Below are positions 1,738 to 59,703 of a stretch of DNA of 64,000 nt, one piece after another; the first letter of the stretch is position 1, and each line of letters starts with the position of its first letter. The notes beneath the pieces were generated by a model, which saw nothing but the letters and a program-made list of their open reading frames with translations, did no database searches and was not told the DNA's origin. The translations under genes and the position numbers were made by a program. Source of the DNA: a virus; IMG/VR virus record IMGVR_UViG_3300045988_131721, positions 1-64,000 of that record; one strand, written 5' to 3'.

Positions 1738-1770
1738 TATTAACATAAATGTTATAAAAATCACCTATGA
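1738..1770 (-). promoter_or_regulatory. Class-2 promoter-like box (TCATAGGTgATTTTT-N11-GTTAATA) upstream of 1507-1716
   Basis: The reverse complement reads tcataggtgattttt ataacatttat gttaatac. Spacing is the same as in the other copies. Confidence 0.6.
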
Positions 1771-1773
1771 TTT

Positions 1774-2133
1774 TTATTTTTCTTTTATTATTATTTTTTC
1801 TTTCTTGCTATTTTTTAATGTTTCAGTAATCTTATCATTAAATGCTCTTACTTCTTCCTCTAATTCTTGTTGTCTTTTTATTTCTTCTTCTGCTTTAGCA
1901 ATTTTTTTCTCTCTCTTTTTAACTATAGCGTCGTGAATTACTACCATCATTATCAATATAATCATAGGTAGAAACATAAATCCTATAAGAGTAAACATAA
2001 AACCTACCTCACCAAATAAATCTCCTGCAATTAAAGAGAAATAACAAGCTCCAAATAATATAAGTAAAAAAATTACGATTTGTAATAATGAAAAGCTATA
2101 TAAACCAAAATATCTTGCACGTCTAAACCACAT
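1774..2133 (-). CDS. Membrane protein with a charged coiled-coil C-terminus
   Basis: 119 aa. Hydrophobic N-terminal two thirds, then KKREKKIAKAEEEIKRQQELEEE. SD aaaggag upstream. Confidence 0.6.
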   Translation of the reverse strand: MWFRRARYFGLYSFSLLQIVIFLLILFGACYFSLIAGDLFGEVGFMFTLIGFMFLPMIILIMMVVIHDAIVKKREKKIAKAEEEIKRQQELEEEVRAFNDKITETLKNSKKEKIIIKEK

Positions 2134-2176
2134 AATATCAACTCCTTTCTATTTTTTTATTTATTTCTTATCTACG

Positions 2177-2209
2177 TATTAACATAACTGTATTAAAAAT
2201 TACCTATGA
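2177..2209 (-). promoter_or_regulatory. Class-2 promoter-like box upstream of 1774-2133
   Basis: The reverse complement reads tcataggtaattttt aatacagttat gttaatacg. Confidence 0.6.
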
Positions 2210-2302
2210 ATTACAAAAAATATGTTTGTCCTTTAAGATTTTTTATTAAGCTTCTTTAATACCATTACAAAAACACTCCAAATATATGTATTATATTTAT
2301 AT

Positions 2303-2335
2303 AATTAACAACTAATAATGAAAAATTACCTATGA
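2303..2335 (-). promoter_or_regulatory. Class-2 promoter-like box (variant -10-like GTTAATT)
   Basis: The reverse complement reads tcataggtaattttt cattattagtt gttaatta. Confidence 0.5.
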
Positions 2336-2429
2336 ATTATATTATTTAATATATATAGTATTTAATTTAGTATTTAATAGTATTTAAGAAAGCTATTTCT
2401 ATTGATATTCCTTGTGTCTATCATATTAT

Positions 2430-2625
2430 ATATGAGTTTTAAAGGTTTTAATATGTGTTTTTAAGGGATATATATGTTAAATTAAGTATCATTTCGTTTA
2501 TAAATATGTGTTTTTAAGGACATTTTTATTTCCTTAATTACTCATAATAATTTAAATATGTTAAAATAAGGGACTATTAATATGAGATATTAAGGGTTAT
2601 AATATAACTATGAGAAATTAAGGAG
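2430..2625 (+). repeat. Iteron-like direct repeats upstream of the rep gene
   Basis: Seven imperfect copies of about 17 nt, ATATG-N7/8-TAAGG. They start near 2430, 2451, 2472, 2504, 2556, 2580 and 2608. The last overlaps the rep SD. Confidence 0.7.
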
Positions 2626-2633
2626 GTTTTAAT

Positions 2634-3590
2634 ATGAGTAAAAATCAAATACTTATGAAAAATAACACAATAGTTAGTGCTAGATATAACATATCTCTTA
2701 TGCATAATAATATATTTATTTTTATATTGTATAAACTTCAGAAGGCTAAGTCTGGTAATGCATATTGCTATATAAGCAAACAAGAATTTCAAAATCTTAT
2801 TTCAAATAAAACACAGAAAACAGTTCCAGGTATTAAAAAAGTATTAGATAATATGTTAGATGAAAAAATATACTTTAGAGAAGATGGTGAGTGGAGCTGT
2901 AAATATAGTATTATAGCTGGGTATGAATATAATAAAAAAGAAGATTTATTTAAAATAGTTGTCATTGATAAAGTTTATCATCTTCTTATGAATTATAAAG
3001 CTTATACACCTATTAATATGAAAATATTTTTAACTTTAAAATCAATATATAGCCAAAGATTATATGACCTTCTTAGATTATGGAGTAATACAAAAGAAAA
3101 TATAACATATGAACTAGATGAATTAAAAGATTTATTAATGTTAAACGACAAATATAATTTGTATGCTGATTTTAAAAGAAATGTTCTTCAACGAGCTAAA
3201 AAAGAATTAAATAATACTGGAATGTTTGAATTATCATATACTGAAAATAAAAAGGGACGAAGTGTAAAATCTATAACATTTCATGTGAAAGATTTAGATA
3301 AAAGAGTATATTTTAAAAAGAAACAAACTGAACAAATTTCACCATTGTCATACATTCCTAATAAGAGCTTAATATCAAATAATTGTATGTCGTCTCTTCA
3401 AAAAGATTTTGAGTTAATAGATTTCACGTATGAAGATATGAAACAGTCTTTTATTGAATCAGTCAATATAACATTATCTAAATTTAATGTAGATAAAATA
3501 GATTATAATGTATATCCTTACTTTAAAGCTGTGTTAAATAATAAAATTAAGTATTATACTGACTTATTTATAAAGACAAGTATTTTTTAA
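2634..3590 (+). CDS. Plasmid replication initiator, Rep_3/RepB family
   Basis: The N-terminus NNTIVSARYNISLMHNNIFIFILYKLQ fits the Rep_3 signature. Iterons lie immediately upstream. SD aaggagg. Confidence 0.8.
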   Translation: MSKNQILMKNNTIVSARYNISLMHNNIFIFILYKLQKAKSGNAYCYISKQEFQNLISNKTQKTVPGIKKVLDNMLDEKIYFREDGEWSCKYSIIAGYEYNKKEDLFKIVVIDKVYHLLMNYKAYTPINMKIFLTLKSIYSQRLYDLLRLWSNTKENITYELDELKDLLMLNDKYNLYADFKRNVLQRAKKELNNTGMFELSYTENKKGRSVKSITFHVKDLDKRVYFKKKQTEQISPLSYIPNKSLISNNCMSSLQKDFELIDFTYEDMKQSFIESVNITLSKFNVDKIDYNVYPYFKAVLNNKIKYYTDLFIKTSIF

Positions 3591-3598
3591 TTAATCTA

Positions 3599-3627
3599 TT
3601 GACAAAATATATTTTCCATGTTATCAT
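3599..3627 (+). promoter_or_regulatory. Sigma-A-type promoter with no ORF behind it
   Basis: TTGACA at 3599-3604, 17-nt spacer, TGtTATCAT with -10 at 3622-3627. Confidence 0.55.
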
Positions 3628-3633
3628 GATATA

Positions 3634-3735
3634 GTACATTCTCATAAGAATTGCAAATATCGCATATAACTTTAATTAAATTATTATATTTTATTTCCAA
3701 AATGTAATAATCAGCCCTTTTTAGGGCTTTTTCTT
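3634..3735 (+). ncRNA. Candidate small RNA of about 100 nt (promoter-to-terminator unit without an SD-led ORF)
   Basis: Bounded by the promoter at 3599-3627 and the terminator at 3713-3745. No ORF with an SD lies inside. Ends are predicted, not mapped. Confidence 0.35.
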
Positions 3736-3745
3736 TTGTTTTTAT
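3713..3745 (+). terminator. Rho-independent terminator
   Basis: AGCCCT tttt AGGGCT stem followed by tttttcttttgttttt. The T-run is only on the plus strand. Confidence 0.7.
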
Positions 3746-3820
3746 AAAAAATAAGCAATTTTTCTTCATTTTTAACATTTTTATGCATTTTTACTCATTT
3801 TTTACTAAAATTTTAGCATT

Positions 3821-4015
3821 TTATTCGTATTTTTTCTTAACAATCTCACCAAATTCAGGAGCTTTCATTAAAATTTTCTCACGTATTGACCTATTTTTAT
3901 GAATTTCCATCAATGATTCTAACTCTTTTAATGAGTTTTCTCTGATTACTCCACCAATTATTTCTCTTCCATCTCTTGATTTCATTTCCCATTCTACTTC
4001 CCAAATTTCTCTCAT
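3821..4015 (-). CDS. Hypothetical 64 aa protein (paralog of 4268-4462)
   Basis: Shared pattern M.E.WEVEWE.KSRDG...FGEI.KKKYE. SD present. Confidence 0.6.
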   Translation of the reverse strand: MREIWEVEWEMKSRDGREIIGGVIRENSLKELESLMEIHKNRSIREKILMKAPEFGEIVKKKYE

Positions 4016-4027
4016 ACCATCGACCTC

Positions 4028-4210
4028 CTAAAATAATTTTTTGACTATATTATATTCACATCCATACTGTGGTTTTTTATTGCATAGTTCTTTTAACTCT
4101 TCAATTTCTTCTTTGATTTCTTCTTTATTTTTAAGTTTTGCTCTCTTTCTATAAAATGTTTCACAACAATTATCTATATCATATATATATCCGTATAATT
4201 CATATTTCAT
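4028..4210 (-). CDS. Hypothetical 60 aa protein (paralog of 4475-4657)
   Basis: Shared pattern MKY.LY...KNK.EI.EEI..LKE.C.K.P. SD ggagggg upstream. Confidence 0.6.
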   Translation of the reverse strand: MKYELYGYIYDIDNCCETFYRKRAKLKNKEEIKEEIEELKELCNKKPQYGCEYNIVKKLF

Positions 4211-4267
4211 AATTACCCCTCCTTATTTTTTACTATATTTTTACTCATTTTCACTAAATTTAATCGT

Positions 4268-4462
4268 TTATTCGTATTTTTTCTTAATAATTTCACCAAA
4301 TTTAGTAGGTCTTGTAGTAATTAATTCACGCTTATTTCTATGTGCATAGTATTTCATAGATTCTCTTAATTCTTCATATGTGTCTTCTTTTATTATCCCA
4401 CAAGTCATTCTCATTCCATCTCTCGATTTACTTTCCCATTCCACTTCCCAAAGTTCTTTCAT
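4268..4462 (-). CDS. Hypothetical 64 aa protein (paralog of 3821-4015)
   Basis: See 3821-4015. SD aggaggt upstream. Confidence 0.6.
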   Translation of the reverse strand: MKELWEVEWESKSRDGMRMTCGIIKEDTYEELRESMKYYAHRNKRELITTRPTKFGEIIKKKYE

Positions 4463-4474
4463 ATTATAACCTCC

Positions 4475-4657
4475 TTAAAAGAATCTTTTAATAACATCAT
4501 ATGCATATACGTATGAAGGATTTTTACTGCATTTTTCTTTTAATTTATTTATTTCCTCTTCTATTTCTTTTTTATTTTTTGTTTCAATTTCATTCATATA
4601 AATATTTTCATATAAATCATCTCTATCTTCTATAGATTCATATAATGTATACTTCAT
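4475..4657 (-). CDS. Hypothetical 60 aa protein (paralog of 4028-4210)
   Basis: The start overlaps the stop of the FtsK-like gene by 1 nt, suggesting translational coupling. Confidence 0.6.
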   Translation of the reverse strand: MKYTLYESIEDRDDLYENIYMNEIETKNKKEIEEEINKLKEKCSKNPSYVYAYDVIKRFF

Positions 4658-5787
4658 TATTTTACCTCCTCTTTCTTTTTACCATACTTTTCACATATTT
4701 TAAGTACTGTCTCTCTATCAATATAGAAAGTTTGTATTTCTGTACCATACTCTTCATAGTCAAACACTCTCATATTCCCTGCTCCTCTTAATAAATGTAA
4801 ATATCCATAGTTAATTATCATATTAGACCTAATTTCATCTTTACATTTACCACCTATAACGATATTTATATTCTGTTTAGTTATATTAGGTAATATATCT
4901 TTAGAAGGTAATTGGGTAGTTAATATTAAAAACACTCCAGCTCCTGCACCTCTACTAGCTATTAAAGCTAACATATTATGAAAATCTTTATTCTTCATAT
5001 AAGAAGATAACTCTTCTATTACTATAAATCTAATAGGCATTTTTTTAAACTTCCTATATTGCCATATATCAGTGCAATTTCTATAAGTAAACAGTTCATA
5101 TCTTTTATCTATATCTTGTATAGCATCAAATAATATATCTTCAGCTTCATCTCTATTTTCCGTATAATGAATTACATTTTTACAGTTTCTAAATTCAAAT
5201 AAATCTACTCTCTTTTCATTGATTAAATCTAACACAACATCACATTTTCTTTTCATTACTAATTGAGATATAATAACTCTCAAACAATTAGATTTCCCAC
5301 ATCTAGTAGCTCCTGCTAAATACATATGTGCATTAGAAGGTTCGCTAAAATCAATATATCTAATACTACAATCTTCTAAATTAATTCCAATAGGTATTTT
5401 ATATCCTTTAGCTTTATGTTTTTCTAAATCAAAGTCAGCACACACTATCTCTTCCTTTTTAATTCTTAATTGAATATAATATCCATTCTTTTTAAAACTA
5501 ACATCTTCTTTTTCTTTATTTAATAAATGACAAAACTTATTCTTATTATTATTAAAATCGTCTATAGTCATCCCTGTAGGTATTATAAATTCATATATTT
5601 TATAGTTTTCGTCTTCCCATTTATTTCTTAACTTAGGTATATCTCCAGAAACATTCTTCATATTGATATTATTAAAGAAATCAGTAAAATCAATATGTTT
5701 AATATTAAATACATCTAAAGCTGATTTACATAATAATGTTATTGTATCCCAAATAGTATTTGTTAAAGGTTCTATCACATTACTCAT
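4657..5787 (-). CDS. FtsK/SpoIIIE-family dsDNA translocase (TraB/TcpA-like)
   Basis: Walker A GATRCGKS, Walker B FIVIEELS and the FtsK-type GVFLILTTQLPSKD motif. Confidence 0.85.
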   Translation of the reverse strand: MSNVIEPLTNTIWDTITLLCKSALDVFNIKHIDFTDFFNNINMKNVSGDIPKLRNKWEDENYKIYEFIIPTGMTIDDFNNNKNKFCHLLNKEKEDVSFKKNGYYIQLRIKKEEIVCADFDLEKHKAKGYKIPIGINLEDCSIRYIDFSEPSNAHMYLAGATRCGKSNCLRVIISQLVMKRKCDVVLDLINEKRVDLFEFRNCKNVIHYTENRDEAEDILFDAIQDIDKRYELFTYRNCTDIWQYRKFKKMPIRFIVIEELSSYMKNKDFHNMLALIASRGAGAGVFLILTTQLPSKDILPNITKQNINIVIGGKCKDEIRSNMIINYGYLHLLRGAGNMRVFDYEEYGTEIQTFYIDRETVLKICEKYGKKKEEVK

Positions 5788-19034: not shown

Positions 19035-19067
19035 CCATAGGTAATTTTGCATTTGTTAATGTTAATA
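19035..19067 (+). promoter_or_regulatory. Class-2 promoter-like box upstream of 19171-20373
   Basis: Reads cCATAGGTAATTTTg catttgttaat GTTAATA. Confidence 0.55.
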
Positions 19068-19170
19068 TAATGATAACAATTAATAAAGTGGATAAAGTTT
19101 TGTTGTGTCACAATTAAAAACAACGTTACTTATCCTCTTTATTAAATTATAATATAAAGGAGATGATATT

Positions 19171-23091: not shown

Positions 23092-23112
23092 AAGATTTCT
23101 CTAGTTTCTTTT
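23083..23112 (+). terminator. Rho-independent terminator overlapping the stop of 22219-23091
   Basis: AGAAACTAGA agatttc TCTAGTTTCT followed by tttatttg. Confidence 0.8.
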
Positions 23113-23118: not shown

Positions 23119-23150
23119 TTATAGGTAATTTTCAATACTAATTGTTAATA
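23119..23150 (+). promoter_or_regulatory. Class-2 promoter-like box (10-nt spacer variant)
   Basis: Reads TtATAGGTAATTTTc aatactaatt GTTAATA. Confidence 0.5.
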
Positions 23151-27119: not shown

Positions 27120-27161
27120 CTTGCCAAAGGTATTGACTTTTGGCAAGTAAGTTCATATAAT
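27120..27161 (+). promoter_or_regulatory. Sigma-A promoter of the sigma-factor operon, wrapped in a perfect 9-bp inverted repeat (operator candidate)
   Basis: CTTGCCAAA (27120-27128) pairs with TTTGGCAAG (27139-27147). -35 TTGACT at 27133-27138, 17-nt spacer, TATAAT at 27156-27161. Confidence 0.65.
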
Positions 27162-27196: not shown

Positions 27197-27748
27197 ATGG
27201 AAGATAAAGCCTATACGGATTTAATGATATCATTGACGGAAAGAATATTTAAAAAGAATTACAATTATATGTTAGACGCAAAGGATGATATGATTGGCGA
27301 TGCTTTCTTAAATCTTTGGAGTGCCAAAGACAAATATGATAGCAATAAGGCTAAAATTAATACCTACATGACCAAAATAATTAACAATTCATTTAAGAAA
27401 TATATCAGAGATAATATTTATCGACATCAAGATAAATATATTCATATAGAGCAAGAAAGCGAAGAAGGATATATATTAGGTTTAGAGGATATTATAGGAG
27501 CTGTGGATGTCAATTATAATGACGTTGAATTTAAAGAACTTATAAATAGATTTGATAAATACATAGAAGAAAAAAATAGGCATCAAAGTAGGAAAACAAA
27601 TCTTGAAGAGTTACATTATATAATAAGGAAATGTGACGAAGGATATACGCAGGTTGAAATAGCAAATACTTTAAAGGTTAGTCAAAATACAATTAAAAAG
27701 AAGATACATAAAATGAGAGACATAATAACTGAAATTAAAAATAATTAA
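27197..27748 (+). CDS. Small alternative sigma factor (sigma-70 family, ECF/TcdR-like size)
   Basis: 183 aa. Region 2-like DDMIGDAFLNLW and region 4 HTH GYTQVEIANTLKVSQNTIKKKIHKMR. Ends ITEIKNN in the 15-mer. Confidence 0.75.
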   Translation: MEDKAYTDLMISLTERIFKKNYNYMLDAKDDMIGDAFLNLWSAKDKYDSNKAKINTYMTKIINNSFKKYIRDNIYRHQDKYIHIEQESEEGYILGLEDIIGAVDVNYNDVEFKELINRFDKYIEEKNRHQSRKTNLEELHYIIRKCDEGYTQVEIANTLKVSQNTIKKKIHKMRDIITEIKNN

Positions 27749-27776: not shown

Positions 27777-28343
27777 ATGAGTGTAATGATAACTGATGTA
27801 GAATACACAAGTGTAATATTAGAATTAACTGGTAAGATATACAATAAAAGTTATAATGGATTCAATTCCATTAAAGATGATATGATTCAATATGCCTTGC
27901 TTCAATGCTGGGCAAGTAAAAATAAATATGATAAAACTAAAGGGGATGTAAAATCATTTACAGCATCAATAATATATAATTCATACAATTTATATATTAG
28001 AGATAATATATATAAGCATAAAGACAAATTAACTTCTATGGATGCTAATATATCTAACGATGAAGAAGAAAATTCTCTATTAGATACTATAGGGAAAATA
28101 GATTTAGAATATCAAAATATCGAATATATAGAATTATTAAAAGAATTTGATGATGTAATTGCAATGCGTAATAAAGGGAAATTTAATAAAATAAATGCTA
28201 AAGAATTACATATAATTAAAGATATGTTAATGGATGGATACAAACAATCTGAAATAGCTAAAAAGTTAAATGTAAGCAGTGTGACAATTAATAGAAAAAT
28301 TAATTTAATTAAAGATATAATTACAGAAATTAAAAATAATTAA
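27777..28343 (+). CDS. Small alternative sigma factor, paralog of 27197-27748
   Basis: 188 aa. DDMIQYALLQCW and the HTH GYKQSEIAKKLNVSSVTINRKINLIK. Same C-terminus ITEIKNN. Confidence 0.75.
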   Translation: MSVMITDVEYTSVILELTGKIYNKSYNGFNSIKDDMIQYALLQCWASKNKYDKTKGDVKSFTASIIYNSYNLYIRDNIYKHKDKLTSMDANISNDEEENSLLDTIGKIDLEYQNIEYIELLKEFDDVIAMRNKGKFNKINAKELHIIKDMLMDGYKQSEIAKKLNVSSVTINRKINLIKDIITEIKNN

Positions 28344-31898: not shown

Positions 31899-31931
31899 TC
31901 GTAGGTATTTTTCTAAGAATAATTGTCGATG
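31899..31931 (+). promoter_or_regulatory. Degenerate class-2 promoter-like box
   Basis: Reads TCgTAGGTAtTTTTc taagaataatt GTcgATg: 12 of 15 and 4 of 7 matches with the correct 11-nt spacing. Confidence 0.3.
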
Positions 31932-34248: not shown

Positions 34249-34308
34249 GGGGATTAATTTCCCCTCTAATTTTTAAAAAGGGAGGATATAAATAATATAA
34301 AATAATAA

Positions 34309-34341
34309 TCATAGGTAATTTTTATAAAGCTTATGTTAATA
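34309..34341 (+). promoter_or_regulatory. Class-2 promoter-like box
   Basis: Reads TCATAGGTAATTTTT ataaagcttat GTTAATA. Confidence 0.6.
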
Positions 34342-41776: not shown

Positions 41777-41809
41777 TCATAGGTAATTTTAACAACAGTT
41801 TTGATAATA
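41777..41809 (+). promoter_or_regulatory. Class-2 promoter-like box (GATAATA variant)
   Basis: Reads TCATAGGTAATTTTa acaacagtttt GaTAATA, followed by aggtgattaaa ATG TAA (41832-41837). Confidence 0.55.
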
Positions 41810-41897
41810 CTATAATAAGAAGGTGATTAAAATGTAAACTTATTGAAATACCTCGACAAAAATAGTAAGGGATTAAAAATAATTAATAAAAGGGAGA

Positions 41898-45413: not shown

Positions 45414-47300
45414 ATGAATAGACATTGCAAAGTTTGTGGTCGAAAGTTAACTGATGGAGATAATATAAAAAGGGAATTATGTAATAAGCATTATTTACAG
45501 ATAAAAAAGTATGGATTTAATTTAGATGATAATCAAAGAAACGAATATGATTTAAATGAATATGAAATAAAAGGCAACATGGCTTATTTGAAATTATATG
45601 ACAATTTTCAAGAGGAATTAAATGAGAAAGCAATTATAGATGATTGTACAGTTGAATTAATAAATAAATATAGATGGGATAAAAATAGAACGTGTATAAC
45701 AACAAATATAAATGGTAAAATAATACCTCTTGAAAATTATATTCTTAATACTAATGAAAAGGTTAATTTTAAAAATGGAAATAATTTAGATTTTAGATTA
45801 AATAATTTAATGGTAATTCACAAAGATGTAAAAGATAAAAAAATAGACAAAAGAAAAAAAGGTAAAATTGATATAATAAGTTATGGATTTTCAAGTCAAC
45901 AAGTTACAGGAAGTAGTTGGGGAGTTTATTATGATAATATTAAAGAAAATAAAAGAGATATGTTACTTATTGAATGTGGGTTAGTACAAGGTAAAGATGT
46001 AGTTACCGATTATAACAATAATAAAAAAATGATTTCTAATATACCGTTTGAAAGATGTGGGCAAATGATATTTTCACACTGTCATCTTGACCACTTAATG
46101 AATGCTGTAGCATCAATAAAAAAAGGATTTAATGGTATAGTATATATGACTAAAACTCAAAGAATATTAGCTGAAAAATTATTGTTAGATGGTGCTTATA
46201 TTCATGAAAGAAATGTAAAAGAATTAAAAAATAAAGGTAAATCACCAGAATTATTTTATGATGAGTCTTCAGTATATTTATTTTTAAATAAAGTTAAAAT
46301 TGTAGAAATGAATGAAAAAATAAAAATCAATAATAATATTACATTTAGATTTAGAAATAACTCTCATGTATTAGGTGCTACTCAAATTGAATTATGGATT
46401 ACTAAGCCTAATAATCAAATAAAACATATTTTATATACAGGTGATTTAGGTACAAATCACAATTTTGAATTCCAACCTTTTCTAAAACAAAATGAGATAA
46501 TCAAGTCATGTGACTTAGCATTATTTGAAAGTACATACTCAGATATAAAAAGAAGTTTTACTAAAAAAGATTGTATAATAGAAAGAGAAGATTTTAAAAA
46601 TACATTATTAGAAACTATAAAAAACAAGTCAAGATGTTTAGTACCGACTTTCTCTTTTAGCAGAGGACAAATGTTAATGTGTTGGATTTATGATTGGTTT
46701 AAGGATTTAGAAGATAATTTTCAAGTTATAATAGATAGTAAACTTTTCCAAGAAATTAATAATGCATATACTCAAATATTAGAAGATGAAGAATTAGAAT
46801 ATTGGTCAACAGTTATTTCATGGGATAAATTTAAATTTGTTGGAGATTATGAAGAAACATTAGAATTATCTACTAAAAACGATGGTATACCAAGAATAAT
46901 TTTATCTTCTTCCGGATTTATGGAGGCTGGTAGGGTAAGAACTTGGGCAAGTAAAATACTAAATAATAAAGATGATACAATATGTTTTGTTGGTTATTCA
47001 TCGGCAAATAGTCTTGCAAATAAAATACAAAATCAAAAAGAAGACGTATTTATTATAGATGGTATAAAATGTATTAGGAGATGTAATATAAAAATATACA
47101 GAACATTTTCATCTCATATACAATATGATGAACTTTTAGATTATTTTTATAGATTAAAAACAAACAAAATAATACTTCATCATGGTGAATTAGATTCAAA
47201 AAATGAATTTAAAAAATATGCTACAAAATTATTAAGAGAAAAAGGAATAACTACTAAAATAATATGTACAGATAAAGATAATACTGAATTTAGTTTATAG
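45414..47300 (+). CDS. Metallo-beta-lactamase / beta-CASP family nuclease with an N-terminal zinc-ribbon plus degenerate HNH-like module
   Basis: MBL motif 2 HCHLDH, then NNSHVLGA, YTGDLG, ESTY and LHHGE. The N-terminus has CKVCGRK...C and NGNNLDFRLNNL. Confidence 0.7.
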   Translation: MNRHCKVCGRKLTDGDNIKRELCNKHYLQIKKYGFNLDDNQRNEYDLNEYEIKGNMAYLKLYDNFQEELNEKAIIDDCTVELINKYRWDKNRTCITTNINGKIIPLENYILNTNEKVNFKNGNNLDFRLNNLMVIHKDVKDKKIDKRKKGKIDIISYGFSSQQVTGSSWGVYYDNIKENKRDMLLIECGLVQGKDVVTDYNNNKKMISNIPFERCGQMIFSHCHLDHLMNAVASIKKGFNGIVYMTKTQRILAEKLLLDGAYIHERNVKELKNKGKSPELFYDESSVYLFLNKVKIVEMNEKIKINNNITFRFRNNSHVLGATQIELWITKPNNQIKHILYTGDLGTNHNFEFQPFLKQNEIIKSCDLALFESTYSDIKRSFTKKDCIIEREDFKNTLLETIKNKSRCLVPTFSFSRGQMLMCWIYDWFKDLEDNFQVIIDSKLFQEINNAYTQILEDEELEYWSTVISWDKFKFVGDYEETLELSTKNDGIPRIILSSSGFMEAGRVRTWASKILNNKDDTICFVGYSSANSLANKIQNQKEDVFIIDGIKCIRRCNIKIYRTFSSHIQYDELLDYFYRLKTNKIILHHGELDSKNEFKKYATKLLREKGITTKIICTDKDNTEFSL

Positions 47301-47328
47301 GTAATAATTGTGGAGGACGTGGTAATAT

Positions 47329-49562: not shown

Positions 49563-49595
49563 TCATAGGTAATTTTATATGTGGTTATGTTAATA
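49563..49595 (+). promoter_or_regulatory. Class-2 promoter-like box
   Basis: Reads TCATAGGTAATTTTa tatgtggttat GTTAATA, followed by aggtgattaaa ATG TAA (49619-49624). Confidence 0.6.
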
Positions 49596-49684
49596 TACTA
49601 ATATAAGAGGTGATTAAAATGTAAAATATATGAAGTGCCAAAATAAAATATTAATAAAAATAATTAATAAAGGTGGTGGTGATT

Positions 49685-50389
49685 ATGAATTTTGAAGATT
49701 TTATAATTGATAAGAATATAGAAATGAAATCAAATGAGCTAAATGAATTATTAAATACCTGGAGGACTGAAGAAGGCAAAAAATCTAAAGAACATAAAGA
49801 ATTCATGAGAGATATAAGAAAAGAAATGAAATTATTAGAATCGTTAGGTTTTGAGGTTGGTGGAAATTTTCCACCGACTACTTATATAGATAAACAAGGA
49901 AAAGAAAGAGGTTGCTATCTATTAAATAAAGAAGGAATATTACAAATGAGTACAAAGGAATCAGCTTATGTTAGAGCAAAAGTAATAGACTATATTAGAA
50001 CCCTTGAAACTTATATAGAAGAAACTGGACAGTCTGAAGAATTTAAATATTACAGAAGAACAGGTAAGATTATAAGACGTGGATTAACCGATACAATTAA
50101 AAAGGTATATAGAAATACGGATAAATTTATATATGCAAAATATACTAATTTAGTTTATACAATAGTATTCGATAAATCAGCTAGTGAAATAAGACTTGGG
50201 AAAGGTTTAAAGAAAAACCAAGCATTAAGAGATAATTTCACATCAGAAGAATTAGATGAAATATTGGAAGTTGAAAATAAATTAAAATCATTAATTGAAG
50301 TGTATGAAATGGAAGGTGTATGTTTAGACTTAATATATGAGAGAGCTAAAAATACTATATTAAGAGTATATCATAAAATAGCAATATAA
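49685..50389 (+). CDS. Rha-family phage regulatory protein
   Basis: HKEFMRDIRK...YIDKQGKERGCYLLNKEGILQMSTKES..VRAKVIDYIRTLE fits the Rha core. Confidence 0.6.
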   Translation: MNFEDFIIDKNIEMKSNELNELLNTWRTEEGKKSKEHKEFMRDIRKEMKLLESLGFEVGGNFPPTTYIDKQGKERGCYLLNKEGILQMSTKESAYVRAKVIDYIRTLETYIEETGQSEEFKYYRRTGKIIRRGLTDTIKKVYRNTDKFIYAKYTNLVYTIVFDKSASEIRLGKGLKKNQALRDNFTSEELDEILEVENKLKSLIEVYEMEGVCLDLIYERAKNTILRVYHKIAI

Positions 50390-51869: not shown

Positions 51870-51902
51870 TCATAGGTAATTTTTTATAAGGAATTGTTAA
51901 TA
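51870..51902 (+). promoter_or_regulatory. Class-2 promoter-like box
   Basis: Reads TCATAGGTAATTTTT tataaggaatt GTTAATA, followed by aggtgattaaa ATG TAG (51926-51931). Confidence 0.6.
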
Positions 51903-51998
51903 CGATAATATAAGAGGTGATTAAAATGTAGAATATATTAGTTATAAGATATAAATAAAAATAACAAATTAAAAATAATTAATAAAAAGGTGATTGAG

Positions 51999-53252
51999 AT
52001 GTATCAGAATGAGGAACATAAGAGAGGAGTAATTGAAAGGGGAGATGGTTACGAATATATAGGAAGTTATAAATTAAATGAAGTGACTATAGATGGTAAG
52101 AATAAAAAACATAATGCTACTTATATTAGAGTTAAATGTCCATATTGCAGAAGTGAATATGACGTGGCTTTGAGCAGTTTTGTAGGAAAATTAAAAACAA
52201 AATGTACCAATTGTTGCAATACTTATGAAAATTCTTTTGCTTATTATATTGAAAAAGAATTAAATGAAAAATTAGAGGATTATTGGGACTTTGAGGAGAA
52301 TGGAAGAAGAGGTATAAATCCTTATTGTGTAACTAAACATAATAGCAGTATTAAAATTTCAATTTGGTGTAAAAATAAGTGGTATCATGGTAGTTATTTT
52401 ACTACCACATCACATTTTACAGAAAATAAAAGATGCCCTTACTGTGCTAATCAAAAGGTTCACCCGTTAGATAGTTTTGGACAATATTTAATTAATACCT
52501 ATGGAAAAGATGCCATAAAAAAATATTGGAGTGATAAAAATATAAATTCCCCTTTTAAAATAAGCAAAGGAAGTGGAAAACCAATATATTTATATTGTCA
52601 AGATAAAGATTATCATAATGATTATGGAGGTTATTCTGTAGTTCCATATCAATTTATGAGAGGGGATAGATGTCCATATTGTACACATAAATCGGGAAAA
52701 GTTCATCCTAAAGATTCATTTGGAAACCTGTATCCCGAAAAGGCTAAATATTGGTCACCCAATAATAAAAAATCACCTTTTGAAGTAACTTCTAGAAGTG
52801 GTAAAAAATATAAATTTATTTGTGAAAAATGTGGTGAAGAGTTTGAAAGAGATTTAGCGAATCTAAATAGAAATAATATTGGAATTGTGTGTAAAAAATG
52901 TAATTCTTCACAATTAGAAACAAAAACTAAAAATATATTAGAAAAACATAATATTAAATATGAAATAGAAAAATCATTTTTTAATTTATATGGTGTAGGT
53001 GGTAAATTATTGAGATTTGATTTTTATTTATCAGATTATAATTTACTAATTGAATGTCAAGGAACTCAACATAAATCATGGCAGAAAACTTGGGTGACAA
53101 AAGAAGATTTTGAAAGACAATTAGAACATGACAAAAGAAAGAAACAATATGCTAAAGAAAATAATATCGATTTATTAGAAATTTGGTATTATGATATAGA
53201 TAATATAGAAAATATATTGATGCATAGATTGAATTTAAATAAAAATAATTAA
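51999..53252 (+). CDS. Homing-endonuclease-like protein, family B copy 2
   Basis: Start moved to MYQNEEHK. Same zinc-ribbon repeats and LRFDFYLSDYNLLIECQGTQH C-domain as 47329-48804. Ends NKNN in the 15-mer. Confidence 0.55.
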   Translation: MYQNEEHKRGVIERGDGYEYIGSYKLNEVTIDGKNKKHNATYIRVKCPYCRSEYDVALSSFVGKLKTKCTNCCNTYENSFAYYIEKELNEKLEDYWDFEENGRRGINPYCVTKHNSSIKISIWCKNKWYHGSYFTTTSHFTENKRCPYCANQKVHPLDSFGQYLINTYGKDAIKKYWSDKNINSPFKISKGSGKPIYLYCQDKDYHNDYGGYSVVPYQFMRGDRCPYCTHKSGKVHPKDSFGNLYPEKAKYWSPNNKKSPFEVTSRSGKKYKFICEKCGEEFERDLANLNRNNIGIVCKKCNSSQLETKTKNILEKHNIKYEIEKSFFNLYGVGGKLLRFDFYLSDYNLLIECQGTQHKSWQKTWVTKEDFERQLEHDKRKKQYAKENNIDLLEIWYYDIDNIENILMHRLNLNKNN

Positions 53253-55388: not shown

Positions 55389-55390
55389 AT

Positions 55391-57087: not shown

Positions 57088-57100
57088 GGAGGTCTAATTT

Positions 57101-57322
57101 ATGGAAAATATATTAGAGTTTCAAATGAGAAAAGAGCAGGAATATTTAAATAATTTGTTAGATAGTATAAATAATTTATTAAATAATGAATTTGAATTTA
57201 GCGAAGATACTAAGGCGCAATTAGAAATTGAGAAAAAAATAATATTGGCAAAATTAAGCGTATGGAAAACAGTAGAGAGGGCTGTAGAAGAATTAAAGAA
57301 CGATATTATATTTGAAAAATAA
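57101..57322 (+). CDS. Hypothetical coiled-coil protein
   Basis: 73 aa. SD aaggagg. Confidence 0.6.
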   Translation: MENILEFQMRKEQEYLNNLLDSINNLLNNEFEFSEDTKAQLEIEKKIILAKLSVWKTVERAVEELKNDIIFEK

Positions 57323-57348
57323 TTAATAACAAAATAGGAGTTGATATT

Positions 57349-58473
57349 ATGGATGAAAAAAATAGAAAGAGATATTTTCTTGCAAACGAGGATTTATATC
57401 AATTAACGGTAGATTTTGAATGTTTATTATTTGCTTTTGAAAAATTAGACCTTCTAACTTCTACAAAACTAAAACCAGACATTGAAGAATGTATCTTAAT
57501 TAGTGATTTTAGTGCTTATCAATTCATAGATTATGAAGAATTAGAAAATTCCAATAAAGATACCTTAACAAGAATAGCAATATTATTATGTAAACAAATA
57601 TTAAAATTTAAATATGGAGAATCAATGAGTATACCTATTATTGAAGATTATGAAAAAGCTTATGATAGATGGAAGTTGAATAACATAAGTAAAAAAGAAA
57701 CAAAAGAATGTAAATTAGACGATGTAATACTTGACAAAGAAATAAAAGCAGATGTGCTTAGTACAATAAACTTTGTAAAAAATATGGAAAAATATAAAGA
57801 GATTGGATGTGAATTACCAAGTGGTATATTACTAGAAGGGTCACCAGGTACTGGAAAAACATTACTTGCTAAATCAATAGCTAGCGAATCTAATATGAAT
57901 TTTAAATCAATAGTAGCATCAGATTTTGCCGAAAAATACGTAGGGGAGTCAAGTAAAAAGGTGCAAAAAATATTTGATGACTTAAAAAATAAAGGTGGAG
58001 GAATTCTTTTTATAGATGAAATTGACGCTATAGGTGTAAATCGTGAAGGTGACGATAACAAGGAATATAGAAGTGCAATGAACAAACTATTATCTTGTAT
58101 GAATGAAGCAAGTGATAATAAGATTATAGTTATAGGAGCAACGAATTTAGTAGAACAATTAGACCCAGCATTAATTAGAGAAGGGAGATTTGATAAGGTT
58201 ATAACTATTCCATTGCCTTCTTACGAATTAAGAATTGAACTATTTAAATTATATGTTAACAAACTTAAACATGAGGACGATATAGATTACGAATTATTGG
58301 CTAAAATAACAGAAGGACAAACTGGAGCATTTATTCATACAGTTTGTAATCATAGTGGTATATATGCCGTAGATAAAGGTTTACATAAAATTAATCAAAG
58401 TTGTTTATTACATACAATAGAAAGAATGGTTAGAGATAAAAAAGTAAAAAAATCAACTATTGGATTTAAATAA
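57349..58473 (+). CDS. AAA+ ATPase (FtsH/Cdc48-type AAA module) with a unique N-domain
   Basis: Walker A GSPGTGKT, Walker B ILFIDEIDA and second region of homology GATNLVEQLDPALIREGRFD. No protease domain. Confidence 0.8.
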   Translation: MDEKNRKRYFLANEDLYQLTVDFECLLFAFEKLDLLTSTKLKPDIEECILISDFSAYQFIDYEELENSNKDTLTRIAILLCKQILKFKYGESMSIPIIEDYEKAYDRWKLNNISKKETKECKLDDVILDKEIKADVLSTINFVKNMEKYKEIGCELPSGILLEGSPGTGKTLLAKSIASESNMNFKSIVASDFAEKYVGESSKKVQKIFDDLKNKGGGILFIDEIDAIGVNREGDDNKEYRSAMNKLLSCMNEASDNKIIVIGATNLVEQLDPALIREGRFDKVITIPLPSYELRIELFKLYVNKLKHEDDIDYELLAKITEGQTGAFIHTVCNHSGIYAVDKGLHKINQSCLLHTIERMVRDKKVKKSTIGFK

Positions 58474-58499
58474 CATTAGGAATAAAATAAATATAAGAG

Positions 58500-59558
58500 G
58501 TGATTATTATAAAAAGTAAAAGAAGAATAATTTATGAAATATATTTTCCTGCCTTCTGTAAAGACTTAAAGGATTTAACAAATAAAACATCATATTTCAA
58601 GGAACTAGGAGTAACAACCTTATGGCTGACTCCTATATTTCCTTCTTGTAACCAACATGGATACGATATAATAGATTACACAGATATTAAAAAAGAATAC
58701 GGAACATTAGAAGATTTCGATAGATTTGTAGAAGTAGCACATGAAAATAACTTAGAAGTTTTATTAGATTTAGTATTATGTCATACAAGTACACAAAATG
58801 AATTATTTAAAGAAAGTATAAAAGGGCAAAATGATTGTTACTTCTGGAGTGATAAACAACAAAATAATCAATGGAGAATATGTCATGATAATCAGAAATA
58901 TTATTTAGCAAAATGGAGTTATGACATGCCACAGTTAAACAATCAATCTGAAACAGTAAGAGATATGATAAAGGACATAATAAAGTTTTGGTTAATAGAC
59001 CATAATATAGACGGATTTAGACTGGATGCCATAATCTATGCATCTGGTAATTCAATTGAATTTTGGAAATGGTTTTGTGACGAAGTTTATAAAATAAAAC
59101 CAAACGCTTATATAGTTGGAGAAGCTTGGGATACATATGAAATAAGTAATAAATATGCCAAAGAAACAGGAATGAAAAGTTTCAATTTTGAGCAAGCAGG
59201 GTGGATAAAACATTCCTTAAACACAGGAAATCCATTAGTAATTAAAAATGACCCAAAATATGATGTTAACTTCTTGTGTAATCATGATATGAGCAGAATT
59301 AGCAATTCTGTAGGACATGATATGAATAAGTTATTTAAAGCCGTTGATATGTTATTTTCATTAGATGGTGATGTTTGTATATATTACGGTGATGAAATAA
59401 ATATGGGATTAAACCAAGATTGTCATGTTGAACAAGGAGGATACGGCGACTGGAAAGTTAGAGGAAAAATGGACTGGCATGAAGCAAAAAGACAAAGAAA
59501 AGACCCTAATAGCTTGTTTAATTATTATAAAAAGAAAATAAAGGAATATAAAAAATAA
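58500..59558 (+). CDS. Glycoside hydrolase family 13 (alpha-amylase catalytic domain) protein, short form
   Basis: GH13 regions DLVLCHTS, DGFRLDA, GEAWD and FLCNHDM. The start is uncertain: no in-frame ATG, only GTG/ATT/ATA near the SD aagagg. Confidence 0.7.
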   Translation: MIIIKSKRRIIYEIYFPAFCKDLKDLTNKTSYFKELGVTTLWLTPIFPSCNQHGYDIIDYTDIKKEYGTLEDFDRFVEVAHENNLEVLLDLVLCHTSTQNELFKESIKGQNDCYFWSDKQQNNQWRICHDNQKYYLAKWSYDMPQLNNQSETVRDMIKDIIKFWLIDHNIDGFRLDAIIYASGNSIEFWKWFCDEVYKIKPNAYIVGEAWDTYEISNKYAKETGMKSFNFEQAGWIKHSLNTGNPLVIKNDPKYDVNFLCNHDMSRISNSVGHDMNKLFKAVDMLFSLDGDVCIYYGDEINMGLNQDCHVEQGGYGDWKVRGKMDWHEAKRQRKDPNSLFNYYKKKIKEYKK

Positions 59559-59566
59559 TTAATAAA

Positions 59567-59600
59567 TAGCTCAAGTTAAATCGACTTGAGCTATATTTGT
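59567..59600 (+). terminator. Rho-independent terminator
   Basis: TAGCTCAAGT taaatcg ACTTGAGCTA followed by tatttg. Confidence 0.7.
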
Positions 59601-59670
59601 AGGTATAAATTATCAATGAATAAATTAAAAGGGCTTAGAATGGCATTTAAAAGGTCAAAATTTTTATCAA

Positions 59671-59703
59671 TCATAGGTAATTTTTGGTGAATTAATGTTA
59701 ATA
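59671..59703 (+). promoter_or_regulatory. Class-2 promoter-like box
   Basis: Reads TCATAGGTAATTTTT ggtgaattaat GTTAATA. Confidence 0.6.

What the first reader, a model, noticed from the sequence alone, without database searches (positions are those of the whole stretch)
1738..59703. Second promoter-like family TCATAGGTAATTTTT-N11-GTTAATA (10 strong copies), possibly the regulon of the tandem phage sigma factors
Ten copies share two conserved blocks separated by a variable spacer of fixed length (11 nt in nine copies, 10 nt in one).
- Minus strand: 1738-1770, 2177-2209, 2303-2335.
- Plus strand: 19035-19067, 23119-23150, 34309-34341, 41777-41809, 49563-49595, 51870-51902, 59671-59703.
- Degenerate copies: 31899-31931 and 47295-47327.

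Conserved blocks with a free spacer, always oriented toward the next gene, are the architecture of a promoter. It is clearly not the TTGACA/TATAAT class that is abundant elsewhere in the window.

Downstream genes include both inverted P-loop NTPase paralogs, the KilAC-type protein, the GxYNxG repeat protein, both Rha proteins, a family-B endonuclease and the DnaB helicase.

The only sigma-like genes in the window are the paralog pair at 27197-28343. They are 183 and 188 aa, in the size range of TcdR/BotR/UviA-type clostridial sigmas. They sit behind a sigma-A promoter with a palindromic operator. This suggests a two-tier cascade: host sigma-A promoters first, then sigma-dependent class-2 promoters.
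Basis: partly seen in the sequence, partly recalled or inferred. Interest (0 to 1): 0.75.

Follow-up and report, generated by a model that had tools for sequence, protein, structure and literature searches.

The report
Phage middle promoters for phage sigma factors
Ten near-identical two-block sequences in this uncultured ~135-kb phage are very probably the phage's own middle-gene promoters, most likely read by host RNA polymerase carrying a small phage-encoded sigma factor: a new example of a familiar phage strategy, not a new kind of system.

Summary
Ten copies of TCATAGGTAATTTTT-N11(10)-GTTAATA exist where 0.02 are expected. All are intergenic and point at the next gene. The two "degenerate" copies are not above chance.

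The motif is conserved, at about 10-12 exact copies per genome, in at least 13 related ~135-kb uncultured phage contigs. It forms no multi-copy set in any of 185,579 bacterial species genomes.

Its TTAATA sits exactly where TATAAT sits in the window's sigma-A-type promoters, 6 nt before a shared TATAAGGAGG start region. Its layout (GGTAATT plus a T-tract, 16 nt, TAATA) mirrors published ECF-sigma promoters.

The two small ORFs are real ECF-like sigma factors and lie behind sigma-A-type promoters in nearly all relatives checked. The motif drives replication, recombination, Rha/antirepressor and mobile nuclease genes. Just outside the window it also drives a 395-aa sigma-like regulator next to the terminase gene. 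The cascade therefore probably has three tiers, not two.

A sub-lineage carrying a third sigma type and no intact sigma-2 carries a variant motif.

The TcdR/BotR assignment fails: only the -10 block resembles that family. Dependence on the phage sigmas remains inferred, not shown.

The parts
1738..1770 (-). P2 copy (TCATAGGTGATTTTT-N11-GTTAATA). The Shine-Dalgarno (SD) sequence and ATG of a ~70-aa ORF follow directly, then the 399-aa P-loop protein 285-1484.
2177..2209 (-). P2 copy, perfect consensus, upstream of the 119-aa membrane-like ORF 1774-2133.
2303..2335 (-). P2 copy (GTTAATT variant), in tandem 126 nt upstream of the 2177 copy. The tandem pair is conserved in relatives.
19035..19067 (+). 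P2 copy upstream of the 400-aa P-loop protein 19171-20373. Its leader holds a strong conserved hairpin.
23119..23150 (+). P2 copy with a 10-nt spacer (T4 instead of T5), preceded by a terminator hairpin at 23082-23110. Upstream of the KilAC/ANT protein 23239-24087.
34309..34341 (+). P2 copy, perfect consensus, preceded by a terminator-like hairpin at 34248-34265. Upstream of the DUF7666/pentapeptide protein 34452-35333.
41777..41809 (+). P2 copy (GATAATA variant), 70 nt downstream of a sigma-A-type promoter at 41707. Start-stop ATG-TAA at 41832-41837. Upstream of the Rha protein 41898-42734.
49563..49595 (+). P2 copy. Start-stop ATG-TAA at 49619-49624. Upstream of the Rha protein 49673-50389.
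51870..51902 (+). P2 copy, perfect consensus. Start-stop ATG-TAG at 51926-51931. Upstream of the DUF4379 zinc-finger (nuclease-like) protein 51990-53252.
59671..59703 (+). P2 copy, perfect consensus. It is followed by a 12-codon remnant (from 59732) of a DUF4379 gene start, then the DnaB-like helicase 59811-61400.
27197..27748 (+). sigma-1: 183-aa ECF-like sigma-70-family protein.
   Evidence: (TIGR02937 62.1 bits against a cut-off of 42.9)
27777..28343 (+). sigma-2: 188-aa paralog, 43% identical to sigma-1. It is the best candidate reader of P2.
   Evidence: (47.9 bits against a cut-off of 42.9)
27120..27161 (+). Sigma-A-type promoter of the sigma genes (TTGACT-N17-TATAAT, 27133-27161). Its -35 lies between the inverted-repeat arms CTTGCCAAA/TTTGGCAAG (27120-27147).
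31899..31931 (+). Claimed degenerate copy. It is not above chance. It may be a decayed P2, because it precedes an HNH-type nuclease gene that is P2-driven in relatives.
47295..47327 (+). Claimed degenerate copy. It is not above chance (14.1 bits). It overlaps the end of gene 45414-47300 and ends 1 nt before the ATG at 47329, so it cannot act as a promoter for that gene.

Best explanation
P2 is this phage family's own class of sigma-70-type promoters for middle (delayed-early) genes.

Proposed mechanism: host core RNA polymerase takes up a small phage-encoded ECF-like sigma. This is most likely the sigma-2-type paralog (27777-28343), possibly together with sigma-1. The sigma's region 4 reads AGGTAA with its adjoining T5 tract as the -35 element. 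Its region 2 reads (G)TTAATA as the -10 element, 16-17 bp away. Transcription then starts about 6-7 nt further on, at TATAAGGAGG, so the mRNA begins almost directly with a Shine-Dalgarno sequence. Either the gene starts there, or a one-codon start-stop mini-ORF is followed by a 50-130-nt unstructured AT-rich leader and a second Shine-Dalgarno sequence.

Proposed order of events:
1. Host sigma-A reads the many TTGACA/TATAAT promoters, including the one in front of the sigma genes.
2. The phage sigma switches on P2 units: helicase-primase, Pol III alpha, ribonucleotide reductase, Sak4, methylases, Rha/antirepressor proteins and free-standing nuclease genes.
3. One P2 unit just outside the window makes a 395-aa sigma-like/LuxR-HTH protein that probably turns on the packaging and structural genes.

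Shown: the motif, its statistics, placement, register, conservation and gene content; the sigma-family membership of the ORFs; and the co-occurrence patterns. Inferred: the transcription start site, the dependence on sigma, which paralog acts, and the timing.
For: - Two invariant blocks with an information-free spacer of fixed length. 10 of 10 copies are intergenic and co-oriented, and two have terminators directly upstream.
- Register: sigma-A-type promoters read TATAAT-N5/6-TATAAGGAGG and P2 reads TTAATA-N6-TATAAGGAGG. Both classes therefore place a -10-like hexamer at the same distance from a shared start region and Shine-Dalgarno sequence.
- Neither possible register keeps sigma-A's key A-11 and T-7 positions.
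- The layout GGTAATT-N16-TAATA with a T5 tract beside the -35 block parallels sigma-E (GGAACTTTT, 16 nt preferred, TCAAA, 5/6-nt discriminator; PMC1312014) and the -35-proximal T-tract of Bacillus subtilis ECF promoters (PMC5758882).
- Both ORFs pass the NCBIfam sigma70-ECF cut-off and hit PHROG sigma families. In the fold search, all 50 best PDB matches are sigma factors, mostly ECF.
- Conservation: 95 stretches with exact copies, mostly in ~135-kb relatives. Of 159 unique instances, 150 have a co-oriented gene of at least 40 aa within 400 nt. The downstream genes are typical middle functions.
- The exact motif forms no multi-copy set in any bacterial genome: 23 stretches in 596 Gb, all single copies except one 2.8-kb MAG contig with two.
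- All eight relatives with a sigma locus carry tandem sigma paralogs. Sigma-1 sits behind a sigma-A-type promoter in the window and 7 of these 8 relatives.
- The variant P2' (AATAAAGGTGAYTTTT-N11-GTTAAWW) occurs only in three contigs. The two of these whose sigma locus was seen have a third sigma type and lack an intact sigma-2.
- Sigma-1 swaps its N- and C-domains freely among genomes whose P2 is identical, whereas sigma-2 stays conserved.
Against: - There are no transcript 5' ends and no expression data.
- Dependence on sigma is inferred from architecture and co-occurrence only.
- The P2'/sigma-3 correlation rests on one sub-lineage, so it is effectively one evolutionary event.
- Contig 135797 keeps at least 4 canonical P2 copies although no sigma-2 was found within 10 kb of its sigma-1.
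- The host is unknown. An exact-match scan cannot rule out a degenerate host regulon.
- The resemblance to ECF promoters is in layout, not sequence identity.
Confidence: 0.6

Rival explanations
1. P2 is read by host sigma-A holoenzyme with help from a phage activator bound to the TCATAGGTAATTTTT block at -35. This would resemble T4 MotA/AsiA middle promoters or a class II activator. TGnTAATAY would serve as an extended -10.
For: The G of GTTAATA is invariant and is preceded by T in 80% of copies. In the register TG-T-TAATAY an A falls at -11. The upstream block is 15 nt, longer than a usual -35 hexamer. The window encodes several candidate DNA-binding proteins (Rha, ANT).
Against: In that register position -7 is T in only about 60% of copies, although it is normally near-invariant for sigma-A. 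The window's true sigma-A-type promoters are near-consensus TATAAT, so the systematic deviation looks like a different specificity. The extra length of the upstream block is explained by a T-tract of the kind published for ECF promoters (PMC5758882). The phage also carries ECF-like sigmas that would otherwise have no visible target.
Confidence: 0.13
2. P2 is recognised by the 395-aa sigma-like/LuxR-HTH protein (phrog_5767) encoded just outside the window. The small sigmas serve another, unidentified promoter class.
For: PHROG annotates this family as a sigma factor. It has a region-4-like HTH. It is present in every relative examined, and its recognition helix differs between the P2 and P2' lineages.
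Against: Its own gene lies behind a P2 copy in all relatives, so it would need another way to be switched on first. No sigma region 2 is detectable, yet P2 has a -10-like block at ECF spacing. Its position immediately before the terminase is typical of late-gene regulators. Its homologs occur in phiCD211-like Clostridioides difficile phages, in which a tblastn search of GenBank phages found no homolog of sigma-1. No third promoter class for the small sigmas was seen in the window.
Confidence: 0.1
3. P2 is read by a host alternative sigma factor, such as a sigma-H-like or ECF sigma of the unknown low-GC Firmicute host. The phage sigmas are unrelated to it.
For: From my own knowledge, the -35 block resembles the Bacillus sigma-H -35 consensus (RNAGGAWWW, compared with ATAGGTAAT here). 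The host genome is not identified, so its regulons could not be inspected.
Against: No genome among 185,579 species shows more than a chance single copy, apart from one 2.8-kb MAG contig with two copies. P2 copies are almost identical to each other, as phage-specific promoters are, rather than degenerate like host regulons. For sigma-H the spacing is 2-3 nt too long and the -10 block differs (my knowledge, not tested). The motif changes together with the phage's sigma repertoire in one lineage.
Confidence: 0.07
4. P2 is not primarily a promoter. It is a portable cassette boundary or recognition site that travels with mobile genes such as homing endonucleases and TnpB.
For: Many P2 copies precede HNH, DUF4379 or TnpB-type genes. 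One sits before an HNH gene inserted into the late operon of relatives. The copy at 59671 carries a remnant of a DUF4379 gene start.
Against: P2 never appears in reverse or intragenic orientation. It also precedes core genes: DnaB, Pol III alpha, ribonucleotide reductase, Sak4 and the late-regulator operon. It sits at a fixed distance from the start region and Shine-Dalgarno sequence shared with sigma-A-type promoters. Mobile genes carrying their own phage promoter fit the promoter reading.
Confidence: 0.05

Closest known systems
ECF (group 4) sigma promoters, e.g. E. coli sigma-E (GGAACTTTT-16 nt-TCAAA) and B. subtilis sigma-V/W/X/M with a -35-proximal T-tract
   Same: A small two-domain sigma. 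A two-block promoter with a G-rich -35 core directly followed by a T4-5 tract. A spacing of 16 nt between GGnAnTT and the -10 pentamer. A short discriminator (PMC1312014, PMC5758882).
   Different: The block sequences differ (AGGTAA and GTTAATA rather than the AAC and CGT motifs). The sigmas are phage-encoded. No anti-sigma partner was seen. The sigma genes are not autoregulated but sit behind a sigma-A-type promoter.
Bacillus phage SPO1 cascade (host sigma-A early, phage gp28 middle, gp33/34 late)
   Same: A Firmicute-type phage with many strong sigma-A early promoters. Phage-encoded sigma(s) serve a highly uniform middle promoter class, and a further factor serves late genes (PMC13401047 abstract; the rest is my own knowledge).
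   Different: No sequence relationship was found: tblastn of sigma-1 against GenBank phages gave nothing. The consensus sequences differ. Here two or three paralogous small sigmas lie in tandem, and the late factor is a 395-aa HTH protein.
phiEco32 / 7-11 phage sigma (gp36) and its middle/late promoters
   Same: An ECF-like phage sigma redirects host core polymerase to a phage-specific promoter class (PMC8948821, PMC4331800 abstracts).
   Different: Those are Gram-negative podophages with a single sigma and an unrelated consensus.
TcdR/BotR/TetR/UviA group-5 clostridial sigmas
   Same: Similar size (~180-190 aa) and an AT-rich clostridial-type setting. The -10 elements GTTATA and GTTAAT (PMC4031146) match the first six bases of GTTAATA.
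   Different: The -35 is TTTACA there and AGGTAA plus a T-tract here. The SRQ marker in region 4.2 is absent. Only the generic sigma70-ECF model is passed.
T4 middle promoters (MotA box plus sigma-70 -10) and T4 free-standing homing endonuclease genes with their own promoters
   Same: A phage-specific box replaces the host -35. Mobile nuclease genes carry their own copy of a phage promoter.
   Different: T4 keeps a host-type -10 and uses an activator plus co-activator. Here the -10 block is non-host-like and phage sigmas are present.

Membership tests
Sigma-70-family two-block promoter (alternative-sigma class) | Two conserved blocks separated by a non-conserved spacer of fixed length (about 16-17 bp between the hexamer cores) | tested here: met
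   The spacer carries almost no information. It is N11 in 9 of 10 window copies and in all 159 instances collected at N11.
Sigma-70-family two-block promoter (alternative-sigma class) | Intergenic, upstream of and co-oriented with genes | tested here: met
   10 of 10 copies in the window. 150 of 159 unique instances have a co-oriented gene within 400 nt.
Sigma-70-family two-block promoter (alternative-sigma class) | Transcripts start 5-8 nt downstream of the -10 block | not testable with these tools
   Only indirect evidence: the distance to the shared TATAAGGAGG start region equals that of the sigma-A-type promoters.
Regulon of the phage ECF-like sigmas (27197-28343) | The ORFs are sigma-70-family proteins with regions 2 and 4 | tested here: met
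   TIGR02937 scores of 62.1 and 47.9 bits against a cut-off of 42.9. Pfam Sigma70_r2, r4 and ECF hits. PHROG sigma families. Fold hits are all sigma factors.
Regulon of the phage ECF-like sigmas (27197-28343) | Motif and sigma genes co-occur across relatives, and the motif changes when the sigma repertoire changes | tested here: inconclusive
   All eight sigma loci come from the phage family that bears the motif or its variant. The P2' variant occurs only in three contigs; the two whose sigma locus was seen have sigma-3 and lack an intact sigma-2. This is one lineage only, and contig 135797 keeps some canonical P2.
Regulon of the phage ECF-like sigmas (27197-28343) | Transcription from the motif requires the sigma | not testable with these tools
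   Needs in vitro transcription or reporter assays.
TcdR/BotR/TetR/UviA group-5 sigma system | -35 element TTTACA | tested here: not met
   The -35 block is (TCAT)AGGTAATTTTT. Consensus taken from PMC4031146.
TcdR/BotR/TetR/UviA group-5 sigma system | -10 element GTTATA or GTTAAT | tested here: met
   GTTAATA contains GTTAAT (PMC4031146).
TcdR/BotR/TetR/UviA group-5 sigma system | SRQ motif in sigma region 4.2 | tested here: not met
   Sigma-1 reads ...KVSQNTIKKK..., sigma-2 reads ...NVSSVTINRK..., sigma-3 reads ...GCTKNCIHKK....
Housekeeping sigma-A promoter | TTGACA-N17-TATAAT, with A at -11 and T at -7 | tested here: not met
   The -35 block is unrelated. In the TTAATA register position -11 is T. 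In the TAATAY register position -7 is T in only about 60% of copies. The window's sigma-A-type promoters are near-consensus.
ECF-type promoter architecture | A -35 core followed by a T-tract; about 16 nt to the -10 pentamer | tested here: met
   GGTAATT + TTT + N11 + GT + TAATA gives 16 nt. The T5 tract is 73-100% conserved. Compared with PMC1312014 and PMC5758882. The canonical AAC and CGT bases themselves are absent.
Dispersed mobile repeat (MITE/REP-like) | Copies in either orientation relative to genes, inside genes, or with terminal inverted repeats | tested here: not met
   No reverse or intragenic copies in the window or in about 1 Mb of relatives' DNA.
Single-subunit (T7-like) phage RNA polymerase promoter | One continuous conserved block of about 20 bp, and a phage RNA polymerase gene | tested here: not met
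   The motif is bipartite with a free spacer. No RNA polymerase gene appeared among the window and relative proteins that were annotated. Not every ORF was scanned.

The most novel reading that the evidence does not exclude
The phage family evolves its transcription programme by shuffling modules. Two or three tandem ECF-like sigma paralogs exchange their region-2 and region-4 domains; all four combinations of two N-domain and two C-domain types exist. Replacing sigma-2 with a divergent sigma-3 goes together with rewriting the middle promoters from P2 to P2'. At the same time the promoter-plus-start-region cassette (with its start-stop mini-ORF) acts as a portable expression unit that free-standing nuclease genes carry with them, and that core genes such as dnaB capture when the nuclease gene decays.
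Probability: 0.25. Interest if true: 0.65.

Novelty: new member of a known kind. Interest (0 to 1): 0.45.

Why it matters
If correct, this gives a ready-made, highly specific sigma/promoter pair from an uncultured family of large gut-type Firmicute phages with no close GenBank relative. It also lets the timing of gene expression in these ~135-kb genomes be read from sequence alone: sigma-A-type promoters early, P2 middle, and a separate late regulator.

Orthogonal ECF sigma/promoter pairs are useful parts for synthetic biology in low-GC Gram-positive bacteria.

The natural P2/P2' and sigma-2/sigma-3 variation, together with the domain-swapped sigma-1 forms, offers a small natural experiment on how sigma specificity and promoters change together.

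It does not overturn any current view of phage transcription.

Tried and rejected
- Megablast of 20 kb of the window against GenBank phages found no match.
- tblastn of sigma-1 against GenBank phages found no match.
- A sigma-profile scan of 185,579 species genomes found nothing, so the host was not identified.
- Rfam (gathering thresholds) and tRNA scans of the window found nothing.
- Folding the start-stop leaders showed no structure beyond shuffles, with z-scores from -0.7 to +1.5, so a riboswitch-like leader is rejected.
- My first variant-motif scan used a spacer one base too long and returned only chance hits. It was repeated correctly.
- The hypothesis 'canonical P2 is read by the sigma-1 region-4 type ...SQNT.KKKIH...' was refuted. 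Contigs 125645 and 120820 are rich in P2 but lack that type.
- The search for a late-promoter motif upstream of the packaging operon was inconclusive. The alignment shows terminator-like hairpins and a conserved block, but there are too few sites to define a motif.
- A search for a third promoter class in the window's unexplained intergenic regions found only weaker sigma-A-like variants.
- TAATAT, just downstream of GTTAATA, was rejected as the real -10 element. The start site would then fall beyond the conserved Shine-Dalgarno sequence.

Full report
**1. The observation**

The window is 25.4% G+C. The pattern TCATAGGTAATTTTT-N11-GTTAATA has 9 hits at up to 3 mismatches, at exactly the coordinates and strands given. 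Dinucleotide shuffles predict 0.02.

A weight matrix scanned with spacers of 9-13 nt recovers the tenth copy at 23119-23150. Its 10-nt spacer comes from a T4 run instead of T5. The ten copies score 23.8-34.1 bits, against a maximum of 18.6 in shuffles.

The two "degenerate" copies score 14.1 bits (47295) and below 12 bits (31899), which is no better than shuffled sequence. Copy 47295 ends one base before the ATG at 47329, so it cannot provide a ribosome-binding site for that gene.

All ten strong copies are intergenic in a window that is about 83% coding. The two nominal overlaps are gene-calling artefacts. All ten point at the next gene. Terminator hairpins lie directly upstream of the copies at 23119 and 34309.

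**2.

Downstream of GTTAATA comes Y-N-N-TAATATAAG and then a Shine-Dalgarno sequence.

The window's sigma-A-type promoters have the form AAAATAATTAATAAA ... TTGACA-N16/17-TATAAT. In them TATAAT is followed after 5-6 nt by the same TATAAGGAGG. In P2, TTAATA is followed after 6 nt by TATAAGGAGG. The second block of P2 is therefore in register with a -10 hexamer. The likely start site is at TATAAGG, and the transcripts begin almost directly with a Shine-Dalgarno sequence.

The alternative, that TAATAT downstream is the real -10, would put the start beyond the conserved Shine-Dalgarno sequence. I reject it.

**3. Relatives**

An exact-pattern scan of IMG/VR found 95 stretches, nearly all from ~114-140-kb contigs of one phage family, with roughly 10-12 exact copies per genome.

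Over 159 unique instances from the window and its relatives:
- 150 have a co-oriented gene of at least 40 aa within 400 nt.
- Gene starts fall into two groups: 21-43 nt after the motif (direct), or mostly 67-170 nt after it (with a leader).
- In 60 instances the first start codon linked to a Shine-Dalgarno sequence is immediately followed by a stop codon. Across all instances that first start most often lies 22-24 nt after the motif.

In the window these start-stops are at 41832, 49619 and 51926. The leaders show no structure beyond shuffled controls. I infer, without having shown it, that the 5'-proximal ribosome-binding site acts as a ribosome-loading or 5'-stabilising element of the kind described in Bacillus.

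**4. What P2 drives**

In the window P2 precedes:
- two paralogous P-loop proteins (phrog_2467)
- a KilAC/ANT protein
- a DUF7666-pentapeptide protein
- two Rha proteins
- a DUF4379 zinc-finger protein
- the DnaB-like helicase with the primase gene behind it.

Across relatives it also precedes Pol III alpha, ribonucleotide reductase, Sak4, DNA methylases, HNH-type nucleases and a TnpB-like gene. This is a typical middle-gene set plus mobile genes.

The copy at 59671 is followed by a 12-codon remnant of a DUF4379 gene. In relatives that gene is intact behind the same P2 copy. So dnaB appears to have inherited the promoter of a decayed mobile gene.

**5. The sigma genes**

- Both ORFs pass the NCBIfam sigma70-ECF cut-off, at 62.1 and 47.9 bits against 42.9.
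- Both hit Pfam sigma regions 2 and 4 and PHROG sigma families.
- They are 43% identical to each other.
- An AlphaFold model of sigma-1 (pLDDT 81.5) matches only sigma factors among its 50 best PDB hits, mostly ECF. The E-values are weak, as expected for two flexibly linked domains.
- Homologs (58 for sigma-1, 71 for sigma-2) occur only in this phage family.
- The window has no other sigma homolog.
- In the window and 7 of 8 relatives, sigma-1 lies behind a sigma-A-type promoter whose -35 sits between inverted-repeat arms. Those arms differ between relatives, and in most of them the two arms stay complementary.
- No P2 copy lies immediately upstream of the sigma genes.

**6. Comparison with known promoters**

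TcdR-family sigmas read -35 TTTACA and -10 GTTATA or GTTAAT, and carry an SRQ motif in region 4.2 (PMC4031146). Here only the -10 resembles that. The -35 block and the region-4.2 helices do not fit, so membership is rejected.

The layout instead parallels ECF promoters. GGTAATT, then TTT, then N11, then GT, then TAATA gives a 16-nt spacing with a T5 tract abutting the -35 core. For comparison, sigma-E reads GGAACTTTT, prefers 16 nt, then TCAAA, with a 5/6-nt discriminator (PMC1312014). A -35-proximal T-tract stimulates Bacillus subtilis ECF sigmas (PMC5758882). This also explains why the first block is 15 nt long.

Neither register of the second block keeps sigma-A's A-11 and T-7.

**7. Host or phage factor?**

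The exact motif gave 23 stretches in 596 Gb of bacterial and archaeal genomes. All are single copies in unrelated taxa, except one 2.8-kb gut Firmicutes MAG contig with two copies, which looks like phage DNA. This argues against a host regulon. An exact-match scan would miss a degenerate one, however, and the host is unknown.

**8. A third regulator outside the window**

In relatives that are syntenic with the window's left end, a P2 copy drives an operon with a methylase or HNH gene and a 395-aa protein. That protein matches phrog_5767 ("sigma factor", E = 3e-69 to 3e-78) and has a LuxR/region-4-type HTH but no detectable region 2. The operon continues with an HU-like protein and an exonuclease. 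Terminator-like hairpins follow, and then the terminase, portal and protease genes.

Its homologs (about 35% identity) sit in phiCD211-like Clostridioides difficile phages and in some Staphylococcus and Enterococcus phages.

In the 10 kb of the packaging/structural operon examined in relatives, most have no P2. The copies found there are one in front of an inserted HNH gene in three relatives and one further copy in L127 that I did not examine. The cascade is thus more likely three-tiered, with P2 as the middle tier.

**9. Which sigma?**

Sigma-1 comes in all four combinations of two N-domain types and two C-domain types (recognition helices ...SQNT.KKKIH... and ...SSTN.NKKVN...). These occur among genomes whose P2 is identical. 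This refuted my interim idea that a particular sigma-1 region 4 reads P2.

Sigma-2 is conserved in every P2-rich genome examined, with family-wide identity of at least 61%.

A variant motif, P2' (AATAAAGGTGAYTTTT-N11-GTTAAWW), occurs only in contigs 123101 (8 exact copies), 135797 (4) and 108657 (3). In 123101 sigma-2 is truncated. In 135797 no sigma-2 was found near sigma-1. Both carry a third type, sigma-3, which is 44-45% identical to sigma-2.

This fits sigma-2 reading P2 and sigma-3 reading P2'. It is one lineage only, however. Contig 135797 keeps several canonical P2 copies. The 395-aa protein's recognition helix also differs between the two lineages.

**10. Verdict**

The promoter reading is strongly supported by indirect evidence. 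Assignment to the phage ECF-like sigmas is the best-supported explanation but is unproven. The TcdR-type label is wrong. The cascade probably has three tiers.

This is a new member of the known class of phage-specific promoters read by a phage-encoded sigma. The secondary features worth noting are sigma domain shuffling, the P2/P2' switch, start-stop leaders, and promoter carriage by mobile nuclease genes.

Noticed in passing
window-wide, e.g. 27739-27752, 28334-28347, 49658-49671: AAATAATTAATAAA occurs 69 times at up to 1 mismatch, where 3.7 are expected. Nearly all copies are on the coding strand of the local genes. It lies just upstream of sigma-A-type -35 boxes, directly before Shine-Dalgarno sequences, and often supplies the last codons plus a double stop of the preceding gene (...KNN**). 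It could be an UP-like element, a cassette boundary or a recombination junction.
   Followed up: partly
window 27120-27147; L096-L103 upstream of sigma-1: The -35 box of the sigma-gene promoter sits between inverted-repeat arms. The arm sequences differ between relatives, and in most relatives the two arms stay complementary (CTTGCCAAA/TTTGGCAAG, TTTACTAGAA/TTCTAGTAAA, TTCTCATTAGA/TCTAATGAGAA). This could be a co-evolving operator or a hairpin.
   Followed up: partly
relatives: L026 11512-12699, L064 6178-7362 (-), L130 4936-6123; about 1.5-3 kb beyond the window's left end: A 395-aa protein matching phrog_5767 'sigma factor', with a LuxR/region-4 HTH. It is P2-driven and lies just before the terminase. 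It is about 35% identical to a protein of phiCD211-like Clostridioides difficile phages. Probably the late-gene regulator.
   Followed up: partly
window 41832-41837, 49619-49624, 51926-51931; 60 of 159 instances in relatives: One-codon start-stop mini-ORFs (ATG-TAA or ATG-TAG) behind a Shine-Dalgarno sequence; the first SD-linked start is usually 22-24 nt after the motif. An unstructured AT-rich leader follows, then the real gene.
   Followed up: partly
window 19078-19147: The leader of the 19035 copy forms a long hairpin (-24 kcal/mol, z = -4.2) that is conserved in relatives (L027, L080). There is no T-run after it. It may be an attenuator or a processing site.
   Followed up: no
window 2400-2633: Three to five iteron-like repeats (CCCTTAAAAACACATAT-like) lie in the divergent intergenic region beside a replication-initiator-like gene (2634-3590; phrog_4402 and phrog_2172). 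This is a probable replication origin and is conserved in L130 and L133.
   Followed up: partly
contigs 123101, 135797, 108657 (L099, L133, L141, L151-L180): The variant promoter P2' (AATAAAGGTGAYTTTT-N11-GTTAAWW, followed by ATATAA) is restricted to these three contigs. The two whose sigma locus was seen carry a third sigma paralog and lack an intact sigma-2.
   Followed up: yes
alignment A1; sigma loci L096-L103: Sigma-1 orthologs are mosaics. Two N-terminal (region 2) types and two C-terminal (region 4) types occur in all four combinations.
   Followed up: partly
window 59732-59770: A remnant (MYYNEEHKKKSN*) of a DUF4379 nuclease-like gene start lies between the P2 copy and dnaB. The intact paralog starts at 47329, and relatives have an intact gene at this position.
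   Followed up: partly
window 3596-4657 (-): A tandem array of five small ORFs (60-64 aa). Four form two alternating paralog pairs (MREIWEVEWE... and MKYELYGYIY... types). They lie downstream of an FtsK/SpoIIIE-like gene (4657-5787).
   Followed up: no
relatives: L130 16964-18629; L064 2184-2532: Long structured-looking non-coding stretches flank an HNH gene inside the late operon, and another lies between two terminase fragments. These may be group I introns or intein-like insertions.
   Followed up: no
relatives: L130 8500-8691: Two to three terminator-like hairpins lie directly before the first gene of the packaging operon. The last one, with its T-run, ends about 10 nt before the Shine-Dalgarno sequence. 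This hints at antitermination or another special form of late control.
   Followed up: no
window 28841-29617 and 34452-35333: Two pentapeptide-repeat proteins (DUF5758 and DUF7666 types). Their 15-nt periodic DNA repeats dominate the repeat finder's output.
   Followed up: no
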